Positions 2,449 through 6,674 of a stretch of 64,000 nt of DNA are shown one piece after another; the stretch's first letter is position 1, and each line of letters begins with the position of its first letter. This DNA is from Vicinamibacterales bacterium (GTDB lineage Bacteria; Acidobacteriota; Vicinamibacteria; Vicinamibacterales; 2-12-FULL-66-21), in the NCBI GenBank assembly GCA_036257535.1, contig DATAFJ010000169.1, positions 4,846 to 68,845 of the forward strand, written 5' to 3'. The position numbers and the translations under genes were made by a program. Below the pieces are notes generated by a model. The model did not search any database. It was not told where the DNA came from and worked only from the letters and a program-made list of their open reading frames with translations.

Positions 2449-4833
2449 ATGAACCTCGAGCCGGGGACGCTTTTGTCCCACTACCGGTTGATCGAGAAGG
2501 TCGGCCAGGGCGGGATGGGTGTGGTCTATCGGGCATTCGACACCCACCTCGAGCGCGAGGTCGCCCTGAAGTTCCTGCCTGAGGAGTTCGCTGCCGACCC
2601 TGACCGTCTCGCTCGCTTCATCCGGGAAGCGAAGACAATCGCCGCGCTAAATCATCCGAACATCGTCGGTATCCACTCGGTCGAAGAAGAACGCGGCGTC
2701 CGCTTCATCACGATGGAGTTCGTACGCGGCAAGACGCTGAAGCAGCTCATCCCGCGAAAGGGCCTATCGACTAAGGAGCTGCTCGCGCTCGCGGTTCCGA
2801 TGGTCGAAGCAGTGAGTGTGGCACACGAACAGGGCATCACCCATCGCGATTTGAAGCCCGACAACATCATGATCACCCCCGATGGCCGGGTGAAGATTCT
2901 CGACCTCGGACTCGCAATCACAAAACCGCTGGAGCCGGCGACGGCTCAAAGCGAGGTGACGACTTCAACTGATGAAGTGGGGCTGATGATCGGCACGGCA
3001 GCTTACATGTCGCCGGAGCAGATCGAAGGCCGGCGGGTGGACCACCGCGCCGACATCTTCGCCCTCGGAGTGATCCTCTACGAGATGGCGACCGGTCAGC
3101 GGCCGTTCAAAGGCAGCTCGAGCCTCCAGGTCATTTCGTCGATCTTGCACGACACCCCGGTCCCCATGAGCGAGCTTAACCCGTTGCATCCTCATGAGCT
3201 CGATCGCGTCGTCCGGCACAGCCTGGCAAAGGATCGGGAACGGCGGTATCAGACGGCGAAGGATGTCCGAAACGATCTCGACGAACTAAAGCGGGAGCTG
3301 GACTCTGGCGTGAGCCCGGTTGTGGGGTCCGTCCGGCCACCGGCGACTCGCCGAGCTGCATACGTGCTGGCCTTCGGCCTGATCGTCGCTGTTGTCGGAA
3401 TACTCTCGGTGGCAGAGCTCAGGAATACTTGGGGTGGCCGAGCGGTGGCCAAACGGAATTCCATTGCCATCCTCCCGCTGAAAAACCTGAGCGCTGATCA
3501 GGAGAACGAGTACTTCAGCGACGGCGTCACCGAAGACATCGCGGCGCAGCTTGCCAAGGTGGGGGAGCTGCGTATCATCGCCGGGGCGTCTGCGGCGCGC
3601 TACAGGGATCGACGTAAGAGCCCGATTGAGCTCGGCTCCACGCTGGGCGTTGCAACTGTGCTCGACGGCAGCGTACGCCGCGCCGGCGATCGGGTGCGCA
3701 TCGTCAGTCAGCTTCTCGATGTGAGGACCGGCGAGCAGTTGTGGTCCGAAACCTACGACCGCGAGCTGAAGGACATCTTCGCGATTCAGGCGGATGTCGC
3801 CCGGCAGATCGCCATCGCGCTCACCGGCGAACTGTCGTCCGCGGATGCAGCGCGGCTGCATCCCCGGCGGCCGCAAGACCTCGACGCCTTTGATCTCTAC
3901 CTGCGGGGACGGTACTACTGGAACATGCGGTCGAGCGACAGCCTGAAGCGCAGCATCCAGTACTTCCAGGAGGCCATCGAGCGCGATCCGGATTACGCCC
4001 TTGCATACGCCGGCCTGGCCGACGCCTACAACCTTCTCGGCGTGTACGGTGTGGTTCCGCGCGGCGAGGCTGGAGCCCGCGCCAGCGCCGCTGCATCGAA
4101 GGCTCTCGCCCTCGATGAGTCGTTGGCCGAAGCGCACGCCTCGCTTGCGCTGGTGCACCAGGAACGGTTCGAGTGGGATGCCGCCGAGCGGGGTTTCAGG
4201 CGTGCGCTCGAGCTGAAGCCAAGCTACGCCACCGCGCATCACTGGTATGCGGCTTATCTCGCAGGCCGCGGACGTTCCCCCGAGGCGCTGACCGAGATTC
4301 GACGGGCGCTCGCGCTGGACCCGTTGTCGATCAGCATCAACTCTGAGCTGGCGGCGATCCTGATTCTCGCGCGCCGTTTCGACGAAGCGATCGGCCAGGT
4401 CGAGGGGAGCCTGGAATTAGACCCTTCGTTCGGTCGTGCGCACATGGTCCTGGCCGAAGCGTATGCCCATAAAGGCGCATACGACCGGGCGCTCGAAGAA
4501 GCCGAACGCGCGGTGGCGCTCGACGGGCGAACCACGGAGCTGCGCGCAAATGTCGGCTACGTTCTGGCGCTGGCAGGCCGAGACGCCGAAGCAGAGAAAA
4601 TTGCCTTCGAGCTCGCCAAGCTGCATGAAAAGAGGGAAGATGGCGCGGCCGGAGCTGTCGCCACCGTTTACGCGGGTCTCGGCCTGAACGATCGCGCGTT
4701 CGAGTGGCTCGATCGCGCGCGTGAGCAGCGGGATCCCGTGATCGGCTCGCTGCAGGCGGATCCCAGGTTCGACAGCCTTCGATCGGATCCCCGGTTTGCA
4801 CGATTTCTCCGGGAAGTCGGTCTCGCGCCTTAG
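2449..4833 (+). CDS. Ser/Thr protein kinase with TM segment, TolB-N-like domain and TPR repeats
   Basis: Hanks kinase motifs [36 protein letters not shown] helix [18 protein letters not shown] follows, then the [23 protein letters not shown] module and a TPR-rich C-terminus. Confidence 0.9.
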
Positions 4834-4866
4834 GCCACGCCGCTCGCACATCTCGAGGAGGAAACG

Positions 4867-5226
4867 ATGAGCGACAACCTGCACAAGTTCCTGATTGCTC
4901 TCGCATCGGATCCCGACCTGATGGATCGGTTCGAGGCAGACCCCCGCGGTGAGCTCAACAAGGCGGGTCTTACTTCAACAGAGAAGGCCGCCGTCCTAAC
5001 GCACGACCCGGCGGAACTTCGCACCGCGCTCGGGAACTCTCCTACCGCGGACGTTCTGACCCGCGTGTTGAAGCACCCGAGAAGGAGAAGAAAGGCTAGA
5101 AAGGCCGCGCGGAAAGTTGTGAGGAAGATGAGGAAGGCGCGAAGGAAGACCCGTCGGAGCGTCCGGAAGGCACCGCGGAAGCAGAGGGCATACGGCCGCC
5201 GGGCACGCGCGAGGGCGAAGGTCTGA
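4867..5226 (+). CDS. Putative split-borosin precursor: helical clasp/borosin-binding-like domain plus Arg/Lys-rich tail
   Basis: Strong SD (GAGGAGGA) lies 6 nt before the ATG. The N-terminus MSDNLHKFLIALASDPDLMDRFEADPRGELNKAGLTSTEKAAVLTHDPAELRTAL resembles the clasp region preceding the core in OphMA. The last 48 aa are 58 percent R/K with no acidic residue. The stop overlaps the start region of the adjacent methyltransferase. Confidence 0.6.
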   Translation: MSDNLHKFLIALASDPDLMDRFEADPRGELNKAGLTSTEKAAVLTHDPAELRTALGNSPTADVLTRVLKHPRRRRKARKAARKVVRKMRKARRKTRRSVRKAPRKQRAYGRRARARAKV

Positions 5227-6020
5227 TCACCAAAGCGGGGAGCCCGCGCCGCGGATCCCTGATCGTTGTCGGCACCGGCATCAACCTCATCGGCCAGACG
5301 ACGCTCGAGGCTGTGGCGTGTATGCAGCGCGCCGAAAAACTGCTTTATTTGGTGGGCCAGCCGTCGACCGCAATCTGGCTCAGGGAGCTCAACCCTACAG
5401 CATGCACGCTCGACGACTGTTATGCCCTTGGGAAGCCGCGCGAGCAGGCCTACCGCGAGATGACGAGGCGGATCCTCTCTGAGGTCCGTGCGGGCTTCCG
5501 CGTCTGCGCTGCGTTTTACGGCCATCCCGGCGTTCTCGTCGACGCGACGCACGACGCGATTCGACGAGCGCGCCGGGAAGGCTTTCCGGCCAGGATGCTC
5601 CCAGGTGTTTCCGCCGACGGATGCCTATTCGCCGATCTCGGAATTGATCCGGGCGAGCATGGTTGCCAGAGCTTCGAGGCCACCGACTTTCTCGCGTCGC
5701 ACCGGCGGTTCGATTCTTCGAGCGGTCTGATTCTGTGGCAGGTAGGTGTGCTGGGCGAGGGCAGCATTCGTAAGGCGATGGCGTGTCGATCGGAGCGTCT
5801 CCGAGTGCTGACCAGTGTCCTCCGCCGGCACTATGCAATGGACCACCGGGTCGTGTTGTACGAAGCCGCTCAGTACCCGGTATGCAATCCGATCATCAAG
5901 CGGATGGCCCTGTCCAAGCTGTCGCAGACTACCGTCCTGCCCATGGCGACCCTGTACGTTCCCCCAAAGCGGCCGCGGCCGCTCGACCCGAAGATCATGC
6001 GGTGGTTGGACGAGGACTGA
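5223..6020 (+). CDS. Borosin-type peptide alpha-N-methyltransferase homolog (tetrapyrrole-methylase fold, SAM-dependent); start codon non-canonical or uncertain
   Basis: In-frame translation from 5223 gives [44 protein letters not shown] ... [15 protein letters not shown] ... [21 protein letters not shown] ... FEATDFL ... [10 protein letters not shown]. These match the OphMA/SonM-type signature as I remember it. The first canonical start (GTG 5313) would delete the GTGI SAM-binding loop. Confidence 0.75.
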   Translation: [265 protein letters not shown]

Positions 6021-6050
6021 GGTGTCTACGGCCCGGTCTGGGGCGCAGGC

Positions 6051-6674
6051 TCACCCCAAGATCCTTCGCAGCTCACCTCCGCCCATGCCGGTGTTGTACG
6101 GCGGCGTGTCCGGCTCGAACTCCTTGCCGCGCGCGAGCGCGCCGACGGGAACCGGATCGAAGCCGGCGTCTTTGACGAGACCGGCCACAATCCCCAGCGC
6201 GTCGGGATCGTCGCTCGCGAGCGGAATGCCGACCTGGTCGCCCTTGCGATGGGCCTCGCTTCCGAGCGTCTTGTAATACACGGTGTTGAACGCCTTCACC
6301 CACCTCACGTTCGGAAACATGGCAGCTGCCCACGCAGCGCTGCCGCCGCGATGGGCAGTGGCCTGACGCGCGATATCTCCGTCACGACGCTCGTACGCGT
6401 TCCCCGTGTCCATTACGATCTTGCCGGTTAGGACTGACGCGAGATCGCGCGCGAGGTCGGGAATCGCCTTGAGCGGTACCGTCAGCATCACGACGTCGCC
6501 GAACGCGGCGGCTTCCATCGGAGTGCCCGCTGACGCACGCGGACCGATCTCGTGGACGAGCGGCTTCAGCTGGTCGGGGTGACGTGAGGCGAGGCGTACC
6601 TCGTGCCCGGCATCGGCCCACAGCTTTGCCAGCGTGGATCCGATCATTCCTGCGCCGACAATTCCTATACGCAT
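6051..6674 (-). CDS. NADPH-dependent F420 reductase-like / NAD(P)-binding oxidoreductase
   Basis: Rossmann N-terminus MRIGIVGAGMIGSTLAKLWADAGHEV. Size (207 aa) and the ...VKAFNT... segment are typical of COG2085 dinucleotide-binding enzymes. Confidence 0.65.
   Translation of the reverse strand: MRIGIVGAGMIGSTLAKLWADAGHEVRLASRHPDQLKPLVHEIGPRASAGTPMEAAAFGDVVMLTVPLKAIPDLARDLASVLTGKIVMDTGNAYERRDGDIARQATAHRGGSAAWAAAMFPNVRWVKAFNTVYYKTLGSEAHRKGDQVGIPLASDDPDALGIVAGLVKDAGFDPVPVGALARGKEFEPDTPPYNTGMGGGELRRILG

What the first reader, a model, noticed from the sequence alone, without database searches (positions are those of the whole stretch)
5080..5226. Protamine-like Arg/Lys tail where a hydrophobic borosin core would be expected, encoded with atypical AGR codons
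Seen in sequence: the last 48 residues of the small protein are RRRRKARKAARKVVRKMRKARRKTRRSVRKAPRKQRAYGRRARARAKV. They contain 19 R and 9 K, no D or E, and a loose xRKx four-residue periodicity. Ten of the 19 Arg codons are AGA/AGG, although the surrounding genes use almost only CGN. This gives a purine-rich tract on the coding strand. Frame 2 has a stop (5057..5059) and frame 0 has a TAG (5097..5099), so this is the only frame that stays open through 5057..5099. Known borosin cores are hydrophobic (Val/Ile/Gly-rich). Here the only such stretch is TADVLTRVL, just before the tail. Inference: the tail could be a polycationic cargo or follower, acting in cell penetration, as an antimicrobial, or in nucleic-acid binding. 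It could also be a solubilising or targeting module. Backbone N-methylation of, or next to, an Arg-rich peptide would be a new chemotype.
Basis: partly seen in the sequence, partly recalled or inferred. Interest (0 to 1): 0.6.

Follow-up and report, generated by a model that had tools for sequence, protein, structure and literature searches.

The report
Polycationic tail on a borosin precursor
The Arg/Lys tail is a real, conserved add-on to a SonA-type partner protein of a peptide-backbone N-methyltransferase, and it marks a large soil-bacterial subfamily, absent from the borosin papers I could read, in which enzyme, substrate and a neighbouring membrane kinase have evolved together.

Summary
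ORF 4867..5226 (+) ends in 48 residues with 19 R, 9 K and no D/E. Ten of the 19 Arg codons are AGR, against about 10% in neighbouring genes.

It is neither a frame artefact nor an assembly artefact. The sequence is identical in an independent soil assembly, and dozens of homologues directly upstream of orthologous methyltransferases carry equally basic tails.

The protein has three parts:
- a SonA-like five-helix borosin-binding domain (residues 1-55);
- a short hydrophobic motif in the register of SonA's methylated core (about residues 61-68);
- the tail, which starts where SonA ends.

Its stop overlaps a CTG start (CTGA) of a borosin alpha-N-methyltransferase with intact active-site residues.

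Basic-tailed partners define one well-supported methyltransferase clade. These enzymes have become cationic (median net charge +8, against -6 elsewhere). Every locus with enough upstream DNA carries a Ser/Thr kinase-TM-TPR gene. The profile finds 233 clusters at E<=1e-10; 122 of the best 150 have basic tails.

The AGR codons are best read as traces of Lys (AAR) to Arg (AGR) exchange.

Most likely the short motif is methylated and the tail is a polycationic cargo or follower that acts by charge. This mirrors the anionic C-terminal peptide of Shewanella SamA1. What the tail does remains inferred. I rate it a new variant of a known kind.

The parts
2449..4833 (+). Ser/Thr protein kinase - transmembrane segment - TPR ectodomain gene. 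It lies directly upstream and is a conserved member of the module.
   Evidence: Pfam Pkinase 1.3e-48 plus several TPR families. A homologue sits directly upstream of the small ORF in 39 of 50 clade loci, which is every locus with enough upstream DNA, and in 16 of 114 loci outside the clade. The closest relative has the same gene order.
4855..4861 (+). Shine-Dalgarno-like GAGGAGG, 5 nt before the ATG of the small ORF
   Evidence: Read directly from the sequence.
4867..5226 (+). Small ORF of 119 aa plus TGA: a SonA-type borosin precursor/partner protein with a polycationic tail
   Evidence: Profile against PDB SonA E = 2.4e-10. Homologues lie upstream of orthologous methyltransferases.
4867..5031 (+). 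Borosin-binding domain (BBD), residues 1-55, a five-helix bundle
   Evidence: AlphaFold2 pLDDT 89-97 with helices 3-14, 16-24, 26-32, 37-45 and 48-54. The top Foldseek PDB hits are all SonA, with TM (target) 0.88 and rmsd 1.0-1.3 A. Pfam LigA 7.8e-5.
5047..5070 (+). Putative core, residues 61-68 (ADVLTRVL). L64 and R66 are in the register of SonA L63 and I65, the methylated residues.
   Evidence: The register comes from the HMM alignment to SonA, extended without gaps. The SonA methylation sites are from PMC8429565. A conserved L/M occupies this position in the sub-group motif (A/P)(A/V)DH(L/M)T. Methylation itself is inferred.
5080..5223 (+). Polycationic tail, residues 72-119 (19 R, 9 K, no D/E): low-confidence or disordered, with amphipathic-helix periodicity
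   Evidence: Composition is conserved in the homologues.
5223..5226 (+). CTGA: a CTG start of the methyltransferase overlapping the TGA stop of the small ORF (translational coupling)
   Evidence: The methyltransferase frame has no ATG/GTG/TTG before the GSLIVVGTGI motif. The N-termini of homologues (M/L) align to this codon. At the same place the clade shows GTGA in 7 loci, TTGA in 2, ATGA in 1 and TGATG in 4.
5223..6020 (+). Borosin-type peptide alpha-N-methyltransferase, 265 aa plus stop
   Evidence: SonM E = 3.7e-58 and OphMA about 1e-53. Pfam TP_methylase 6.7e-15. The equivalents of SonM Y58, R67, Y71, Y93, E146, W166 and Q167 are conserved, and F99 is replaced by L (with PMC8429565). Net charge is +10.

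Best explanation
SHOWN
- ORF 4867..5226 is a genuine gene for a SonA-type partner/precursor of a split borosin system.
- It has a five-helix borosin-binding domain, then a short hydrophobic motif in the position of SonA's methylated core, then a 48-residue polycationic extension that begins where SonA ends.
- It is translationally coupled (CTGA) to a borosin alpha-N-methyltransferase whose active-site residues are intact.
- It sits behind a membrane Ser/Thr kinase with a TPR ectodomain.
- The tail is the hallmark of a whole clade of such modules. Its charge and lack of acidic residues are conserved. Its sequence, length and Lys/Arg ratio are not.

INFERRED
- The methyltransferase dimer docks on the binding domain and N-methylates one or a few backbone amides in the ADVLTRVL segment (L64 is the best candidate).
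- The tail is not the recognition element. It is the cargo or follower and works through charge by binding polyanions (nucleic acid, anionic membrane or polyphosphate).
- It may act while attached, or after a methylation-licensed proteolytic release like that of the Shewanella amazonensis SamA1 C-terminal peptide.
- The enzyme's switch to a positive surface is an adaptation to a +25 substrate. Either it avoids non-productive sticking or it shares a polyanionic scaffold with the substrate.
- The AGR codons are traces of Lys (AAR) to Arg (AGR) exchange in a lineage that has become unusually Arg-rich.
For: Methyltransferase: homologous to SonM and OphMA with catalytic residues conserved.

N-domain: it is the SonA BBD by profile (E = 2.4e-10), by AlphaFold2 model and by fold search.

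Register: SonA residue n corresponds to window residue n+1. SonA L63/I65 therefore fall on L64/R66, and the SonA C-terminus falls on the first tail residue.

Homologues:
- 43 basic-tailed small ORFs lie directly upstream of methyltransferase homologues on the same strand.
- One methyltransferase clade (SH-aLRT 99, 45 rows) holds 33 of the 36 basic-partner rows. Its members without a detected partner are mostly on truncated contigs.
- 233 clusters (50% identity) match the profile at E<=1e-10, and 122 of the best 150 have basic tails. Their last 25 residues are 50% K+R and 1% D+E.

Coupling: NTGA or TGATG overlaps are common in the clade.

Enzyme charge: median +8 in the clade against -6 elsewhere (p = 1e-20). 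Acidobacteriota enzymes outside the clade are negative. Independent basic-partner groups are at 0 to +4.

Kinase: present upstream in all clade loci with enough upstream DNA.

Codons: AGR is enriched in homologue tails (23% against 8%, p = 6e-9). A related strain in a metatranscriptome differs in the tail by two AAG>AGG (K>R) changes, one synonymous AGG>AGA, and M>V, T>A and P>A, with no indels.

Sequence: identical in independent assemblies.

Precedent: SamA1 carries a single N-methyl next to its binding domain, which licenses cleavage and release of a highly charged (anionic), unmethylated C-terminal peptide (bioRxiv 10.1101/2024.01.09.574750).
Against: - No methylation, cleavage or binding was measured. 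The methylation site rests on a gapless extrapolation a few residues past the end of the HMM alignment.
- No protease or exporter is conserved in the neighbourhood.
- No pepsin-like PF00026 gene was found in the 92.6%-complete genome, although the control genomes were also silent. Release and export are therefore unsupported.
- A cationic enzyme argues against the tail docking on the enzyme, but it does not identify the tail's target.
- The RNA evidence is two 151-nt pieces from a related strain in one small library, and DNA carry-over cannot be excluded.
- This tail is more Arg-rich, more hydrophobic and more helix-prone than the family norm, so family-level inferences may not transfer fully.
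Confidence: 0.6

Rival explanations
1. The tail, or the hydrophobic residues inside it, is itself the substrate. The methyltransferase would walk N-to-C from the ADVLTRVL motif into the RKxxRK region and produce a backbone-N-methylated Arg/Lys-rich peptide, which would be a new chemotype.
For: - Borosin enzymes act iteratively from N to C, and some install tens of consecutive methylations or methylate charged (Asp/Glu) residues (bioRxiv 10.1101/2021.12.24.474128).
- Unmethylated SonA core binds as a helix (PMC8429565), and this tail has helical periodicity.
- One sub-group repeats a short GIM motif between Lys runs (L093, L096, L099, L100). Another has many PIIQ/KPVVR repeats before its Lys tail (L118, L124).
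Against: - Most family tails are Gly/Pro/Lys-rich with only 3% hydrophobic residues and no helix propensity.
- The SonM position-i pocket is described as large and hydrophobic.
- In the closest precedent the charged C-terminal peptide is not methylated.
Confidence: 0.12
2. This is not a natural-product precursor. It would be an intracellular signalling adaptor, with the polybasic tail anchoring the small protein (and the bound enzyme) to the anionic inner membrane or the nucleoid. The adjacent Ser/Thr kinase would control it, for example by an electrostatic switch of the MARCKS kind.
For: - The kinase-TM-TPR gene is strictly syntenic.
- No protease or exporter is conserved.
- The enzyme is also cationic.
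- Split borosin enzymes elsewhere are linked or fused to membrane GGDEF-TPR signalling proteins.
- Family tails contain Ser/Thr.
Against: - There is no evidence of phosphorylation.
- This particular tail has only one Ser and one Thr.
- Synteny with a kinase could equally reflect transcriptional or regulatory coupling of a secreted product.
Confidence: 0.15
3. The tail is only a handling module. It would keep the precursor soluble or speed substrate exchange on the enzyme, with no target of its own.
For: The sequence is not conserved, only the charge. Enzyme charge covaries with it, as expected if the tail mainly interacts with, or must be repelled by, the enzyme.
Against: The core here is short and not very hydrophobic, so 48 residues and a net charge of +25 are far more than solubility needs. 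Classical hydrophobic-core relatives manage without such tails.
Confidence: 0.1
4. The tail is an artefact. The true reading would shift into frame 0 (acidic, running into the methyltransferase) and give a BBD-core-enzyme fusion of the 'type 0' kind, through a sequencing error or programmed frameshift.
For: Frame 0 is open from 5100 into the methyltransferase and reads as an acidic linker. The methyltransferase lacks a canonical start. N-terminal BBD fusions exist.
Against: - Frame 0 has TAG at 5097..5099.
- The sequence is identical in independent assemblies.
- Homologues have separate genes with their own starts, and the relative frame varies across loci (29, 10 and 3 loci in the three possible frames).
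- Basic tails are conserved as protein.
- The variant strain shows charge-preserving substitutions and no indels.
Confidence: 0.03

Closest known systems
SonA/SonM, type IV split borosin of Shewanella oneidensis (PDB 7LTC, 7LTE; PMC8429565)
   Same: A separate small precursor with a five-helix borosin-binding domain, followed by a short core. An adjacent, co-directional TP_methylase-fold alpha-N-methyltransferase with the same catalytic Tyr/Arg/Tyr set. Sequence-level and fold-level homology for both proteins.
   Different: SonA ends 6 residues after its second methylated residue, whereas this protein continues for 48 polycationic residues. The enzyme here is cationic (+10). The neighbouring gene is a Ser/Thr kinase-TPR rather than a GGDEF protein. 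The core motif is different.
SamA1/SamM1/SamP of Shewanella amazonensis (bioRxiv 10.1101/2024.01.09.574750)
   Same: A BBD-fused precursor with a methylated hydrophobic residue right after the domain, followed by a long, highly charged, low-complexity C-terminal peptide. There, that peptide is the released and unmethylated part.
   Different: The charge is opposite (anionic there, cationic here). The pepsin-like maturase was not found in this genome. Release is not shown here.
Type 0 fused borosins (BBD and core N-terminal to the methyltransferase)
   Same: The order BBD - core - methyltransferase along the DNA.
   Different: Here there are two genes with an overlapping stop and start. A stop codon blocks the fusion frame, and homologues confirm two genes.
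Histone-H1-like or protamine-like polybasic tails of bacterial proteins (for example the Lys/Ala/Pro repeats of nucleoid-associated or PHA-granule proteins; from my own knowledge)
   Same: Composition. Family tails are K/A/P/G/S/T-rich, and some are literal AKKAP repeats (L126). They have strong positive charge and no acidic residues, and are probably disordered.
   Different: No sequence-family match. The tail is attached to a borosin-binding domain and paired with a backbone N-methyltransferase. DNA binding has not been tested.

Membership tests
Split borosin system (type IV-like) | Methyltransferase belongs to the borosin alpha-N-methyltransferase branch of the TP_methylase fold | tested here: met
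   SonM E = 3.7e-58 and OphMA/dbOphMA 1e-53 to 2e-56, against 8e-4 for a uroporphyrin methylase.
Split borosin system (type IV-like) | Active-site residues (SonM Y58, R67, Y71; SAM-contact Y93; lock residues F99, W166) | tested here: met
   The alignment to SonM shows Y, R, Y, Y and W conserved, with F99 replaced by Leu. The roles of these residues are from PMC8429565.
Split borosin system (type IV-like) | Separate precursor carrying a borosin-binding domain (five-helix bundle) | tested here: met
   Profile against SonA E = 2.4e-10. AlphaFold2 five-helix bundle with pLDDT 89-97. Foldseek top hits are SonA with TM 0.88.
Split borosin system (type IV-like) | Precursor and methyltransferase genes adjacent and co-transcribed | tested here: met
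   CTGA stop/start overlap, and the same arrangement in 43 homologous loci.
Split borosin system (type IV-like) | Core peptide directly C-terminal to the binding domain, with hydrophobic residues at the methylated positions | tested here: inconclusive
   ADVLTRVL is in the SonA core register, and L64 aligns to SonA L63. The register is extrapolated, and R66 sits at the I65-equivalent position.
Split borosin system (type IV-like) | Backbone alpha-N-methylation of the precursor demonstrated | not testable with these tools
   Needs co-expression and MS/MS.
Type 0 fused borosin | BBD, core and methyltransferase in one polypeptide | tested here: not met
   TAG at 5097..5099 in the fusion frame. Homologues have separate genes and variable relative frames.
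SamA1-type precursor (methylation-licensed release of a charged C-terminal peptide) | Long, highly charged C-terminal peptide after the methylated residue | tested here: met
   48 residues, 28 of them K/R, starting 8 residues after L64. The charge sign is opposite to SamA1.
SamA1-type precursor (methylation-licensed release of a charged C-terminal peptide) | Pepsin-like A1 peptidase (PF00026) in the cluster or genome | tested here: not met
   No PF00026 match in the own genome, which is 92.6% complete. The control genomes were also silent, so this negative is weak. No protease is conserved next to the module.
Protamine / histone-H1-like proteins | Match to a protamine or H1-type family model | tested here: not met
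   Pfam and NCBIfam scans of the whole ORF return only LigA/IniB-N/NHLP-type hits to the N-domain. The resemblance is compositional only.

The most novel reading that the evidence does not exclude
A large soil-bacterial clade may use borosin backbone N-methylation not to build a hydrophobic natural product but as a switch on a polycationic small protein. Under a membrane Ser/Thr kinase, methylation next to the binding domain would license release or activation of a +25 peptide that condenses nucleic acids or attacks anionic membranes. This would be the cationic mirror image of the SamA1 system, with an enzyme that has re-evolved a positive surface to handle its substrate.
Probability: 0.25. 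Interest if true: 0.75.

Novelty: new variant of a known kind. Interest (0 to 1): 0.6.

Why it matters
Borosins are the only ribosomal route to backbone N-methylated peptides. For nearly all bacterial split borosins the final product and its biology are unknown.

This locus represents a coherent sub-family of at least about 120 clusters at 50% identity among the best matches. It has three co-evolving traits that the borosin papers I could read do not mention: a polycationic C-terminal peptide, a charge-inverted methyltransferase, and an obligatory Ser/Thr kinase-TPR neighbour.

It gives a defined, testable case for three questions:
- whether N-methylation serves as a maturation signal for charged peptides in general, since the only precedent is anionic;
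- whether cationic N-methylated peptides exist in nature;
- why split borosin modules keep associating with membrane signalling proteins.

It also shows that automatic gene calling truncates the enzyme here because of its CTG start.

Tried and rejected
1. Frame artefact or fusion with the methyltransferase: rejected. A stop lies in the fusion frame, independent assemblies are identical, and homologues have two genes with variable relative frames.

2. Word-indexed homologue search with the whole small protein: it found only the protein itself. Homologues appeared only after I fetched loci around methyltransferase relatives and searched them with the N-domain, and later by full hmmsearch.

3. 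Family scans for the tail (protamine, H1 and others): nothing beyond N-domain hits.

4. The tail docks on an acidic enzyme surface: rejected, because clade enzymes are cationic.

5. The positive enzyme charge is a lineage (proteome) effect: rejected, because Acidobacteriota enzymes outside the clade are negative.

6. A conserved protease or exporter next to the module: none found. Downstream there is only an SPFH/Band 7 gene in about 10 loci and sometimes a second kinase.

7. A pepsin-like maturase in the genome: none, but the negative is weak.

8. The closest relative's locus (83% identical enzyme, with a 92-aa small ORF): its DNA could not be fetched.

9. Literature search for basic, lysine, kinase or Acidobacteria in borosin papers: no mention. 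Papers in subscription journals were not searchable.

Full report
OBSERVATION

The region reads as described. ORF 4867..5226 (+) encodes 119 residues. The last 48 (nt 5080..5223) contain 19 Arg, 9 Lys and no acidic residue.

Ten of the 19 Arg codons are AGA/AGG. Seven neighbouring genes use AGR for 9.7% of Arg codons (binomial p = 2.9e-6).

The two other + frames are closed. Frame 2 has TGA at 5057..5059 and two further stops inside the tract. Frame 0 has TAG at 5097..5099.

The basic residues are periodic at lags 4 and 7, which are reached by 0.08% and 0.1% of shuffles. The hydrophobic moment peaks only at 100 degrees (0.79, against 0.39 or less at other angles). The maximum over 18 residues is 0.83, reached by 1.35% of shuffles. 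The periodicity is therefore that of an amphipathic alpha-helix. AlphaFold2 draws a helix at residues 74-98, but with low confidence (pLDDT about 52).

Among 41,732 six-frame ORFs of the genome, 22 have a comparably basic 48-mer. Twenty of these are Lys-free Arg runs typical of off-frame GC-rich DNA. Only this ORF and one unrelated small ORF on contig C197 also contain Lys.

Positions 4800..5400 are identical and gap-free in contigs of two soil metagenome runs from different studies.

WHAT THE TWO GENES ARE

The downstream protein is a borosin alpha-N-methyltransferase. It matches SonM at E = 3.7e-58 and OphMA-type enzymes at 1e-53 to 2e-56, whereas a tetrapyrrole methylase scores only 8e-4. 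The residues that PMC8429565 shows to matter in SonM (Y58, R67, Y71, Y93, E146, W166, Q167) are all conserved. F99 is replaced by Leu.

The N-terminal 55 residues of the small ORF are a borosin-binding domain, on three lines of evidence:
- A profile of the family hits SonA at E = 2.4e-10.
- AlphaFold2 gives a five-helix bundle with pLDDT 89-97.
- All top Foldseek hits in the PDB are SonA chains (TM normalised to the target 0.88, rmsd 1.0-1.3 A, 31-33% identity), followed by the OphMA clasp and LigA.

In the register of that alignment, SonA residue n corresponds to residue n+1 here. SonA's methylated L63 and I65 therefore fall on L64 and R66 of ADVLTRVL. SonA's C-terminus (residue 71) falls on R72, the first residue of the tail. 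The tail does not replace the core. It is appended to a complete SonA-like precursor. The last few positions of this register are a gapless extrapolation and count as inference.

GENE BOUNDARY

The methyltransferase frame has no ATG, GTG or TTG upstream of the essential GSLIVVGTGI motif. Gene callers consequently truncated it to 232 aa (P0002).

Homologues start with M or L at the position of CTG 5223. That codon overlaps the TGA of the small ORF, giving CTGA. In the clade the same junction reads GTGA in 7 loci, TTGA in 2, ATGA in 1 and TGATG in 4. This is the ordinary signature of translational coupling, here with a weak CTG start.

Frame 0 across the tail reads as an acidic linker that runs into the enzyme. 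That raised the possibility of a frameshifted 'type 0' fusion. I reject it for three reasons:
- The fusion frame contains TAG at 5097..5099.
- Independent assemblies give the identical sequence.
- The relative frame of the two genes varies among homologues, with 29, 10 and 3 loci in the three possible frames.

THE TAIL IS A FAMILY FEATURE

A word-indexed search with the small protein found only the protein itself. I therefore fetched 160 loci around methyltransferase relatives and loci from relatives of the genome, and searched them with the N-domain.

Binding-domain ORFs fall into two kinds:
- Classical precursors have short hydrophobic ends (GCCMLVFI, FVTVVFISVVFD, IVTIIFVSVILD and the like).
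- 43 ORFs, all directly upstream of and co-directional with the enzyme, end in K/R-rich tails.

In a maximum-likelihood tree of 156 enzymes, 33 of the 36 basic-partner rows fall in one clade of 45 rows (SH-aLRT 99). Most of the remaining clade members lie on contigs truncated upstream. Small independent groups (L118/L124, L121) acquired basic tails separately.

A full hmmsearch of 1.84 billion representatives found 233 clusters at E<=1e-10. Of the best 150, 122 have basic tails. Their last 25 residues average 50% K+R, 1% D+E, 43% G/A/P/S/T and 3% hydrophobic residues.

Sequence and length are not conserved (mean column identity 29% in A2). The window's protein is an extreme member:
- Its net charge is +25, against a median of +12.
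- Its Arg share is 0.67, against a median of 0.28-0.32.
- It is unusually helix-prone.

Between domain and tail, sub-groups carry different short motifs. The window belongs to the (A/P)(A/V)DH(L/M)T group, with a conserved L/M at the position equivalent to SonA L63.

CODONS

Homologue tails use AGR for 23% of Arg codons, against 8% in their own methyltransferase genes (Fisher p = 6e-9). Their Lys codons are mostly AAG.

A metatranscriptome holds two 151-nt pieces of a closely related strain covering only the small ORF (4872..5022 and 5068..5218). In the tail this strain differs by:
- AAG>AGG at 5102 and at 5180 (both K>R);
- AGG>AGA at 5145 (synonymous);
- M>V, T>A and P>A.

There are no indels. 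The AGR codons are therefore best explained as traces of single-transition Lys/Arg exchange under selection for charge. They are not evidence of foreign DNA or of another frame. The same pieces are modest evidence of transcription. There are only two of them, and DNA carry-over cannot be excluded.

CO-EVOLVING PARTNERS

Clade enzymes are cationic. Their median net charge is +8 (interquartile range 5-10; the window's enzyme is +10), against -6 for all others (Mann-Whitney p = 1e-20).

This is not a lineage effect. Acidobacteriota enzymes outside the clade range from -13 to 0, apart from L006 at +6. The independent basic-partner groups are at 0 to +4. The shift is concentrated in enzyme residues 189-209 and 226-260.

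A Pkinase-TM-TPR gene lies directly upstream of the small ORF in 39 of 50 clade loci. The other eleven lack a detected upstream homologue: ten have under 500 nt of DNA ahead of the enzyme, and L089's enzyme match is split in two, so its start is uncertain. The kinase also lies upstream in 16 of 114 loci outside the clade, mainly Thermoanaerobaculia, whose precursors are also Lys-containing. The closest relative (enzyme 83% identical) has the same three genes.

No protease or exporter is conserved. Downstream there is an SPFH/Band 7 gene in about ten loci and occasionally a second kinase.

MECHANISM

What is shown is the anatomy above. What follows is inference.

By homology with SonM/SonA, the enzyme dimer binds the five-helix domain and methylates backbone amides of the short hydrophobic segment. 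L64 is the best candidate.

The tail lies beyond the part that SonA places in the active site, and only its charge is conserved. It is therefore most likely a cargo or follower that acts electrostatically on polyanions.

The closest precedent is SamA1 of Shewanella amazonensis. There, a single N-methyl on F52, next to the binding domain, is required for a pepsin-like peptidase to release a long, unmethylated, strongly anionic C-terminal peptide. The present family looks like its cationic mirror image. However, no PF00026 peptidase was found in this genome. That negative is weak, because the control genomes were also silent.

The cationic enzyme excludes simple docking of the tail on the enzyme. 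It fits two alternatives, which I cannot separate: avoidance of non-productive sticking to a +25 substrate, or joint residence on a polyanionic scaffold.

The rival readings (methylation of the tail itself, a kinase-controlled membrane or nucleoid adaptor, a mere solubility module, and a frame artefact) are listed with their tests.

COMPARISON AND NOVELTY

Both proteins meet the sequence and fold criteria of a type IV-like split borosin pair. Methylation itself cannot be tested here.

The borosin papers I could read define types 0 to XI by architecture and core. They contain no mention of basic or lysine-rich tails, of kinases or of Acidobacteria. Subscription papers were not searchable, so prior description cannot be fully excluded.

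I rate the finding a new variant of a known kind: a polycationic-tailed, kinase-linked, charge-inverted sub-family of split borosins, of which this locus is an unusually Arg-rich member.

Noticed in passing
window 5223-5325: The methyltransferase has no canonical start codon, and public gene calls truncate it to 232 aa, starting at ATG 5322 and losing the SAM-binding GSLIVVGTGI motif. The real start is most likely CTG 5223, overlapping the upstream stop.
   Followed up: yes
G000 contig C197:11929-12237 (-), outside the window: A second small polybasic ORF in the same genome, about 93 aa. Its N-terminal part reads MAKKRSARGKKKAGKRKGGRGRKSTKAARKTRKTARKASRKAKTGGRKKK..., and its C-terminal end is acidic and Pro-rich. 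It is unrelated to the borosin-binding domain. It is the only other Lys-containing polybasic 48-mer among the genome's six-frame ORFs.
   Followed up: no
L093:628-945, L096:2097-2441, L099:2085-2441, L100:2106-2426: A sub-group of basic-tailed precursors repeats a short G(N/K)GIM motif two or three times between Lys runs (for example ...NGTGIMTRE...GNGIMKKKKKRPGKGIMKKKKRP...). This may be a multi-core layout with polybasic spacers.
   Followed up: no
L118:1765-2370, L124:545-1147: An independent lineage has precursors of about 200 aa. A binding domain is followed by many PIIQ/KPVVR-type hydrophobic repeats and then a long Lys-rich tail. Their enzymes are near-neutral to positive (0 and +3).
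   Followed up: partly
L043:2126-2986, L061:2240-2995: Acidobacteriaceae precursors with more than ten tandem (A/T)(L/I)IWAQ-type repeats after the binding domain. They look like multi-core precursors of the type V/VI kind.
   Followed up: no
L053:1014-1481: A precursor with two tandem copies of binding domain plus core (…AYIIVWPWR… and …GIYIVWPWR…) in one ORF.
   Followed up: no
L143:3282-4715 (-) and about 9 other clade loci: An SPFH/Band 7 family gene lies convergent, just downstream of the methyltransferase, in roughly ten clade loci. It is not present in the window.
   Followed up: partly
window 4872-5218 (run X22): In a small metatranscriptome, the only pieces mapping to 4700..6100 lie on the small ORF and none lie on the kinase or the methyltransferase. 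They come from a strain 93-98% identical to the window.
   Followed up: partly
L024, L025, L031, L033, L041, L047, L048, L062, L153, L160: In Thermoanaerobaculia-type loci the same kinase-TPR gene precedes the methyltransferase, but the binding-domain precursors are encoded on the opposite strand between them. They end in Lys plus Ile/Val motifs (for example ...AAIIKSFLATIIQTAVPPKKKK).
   Followed up: no
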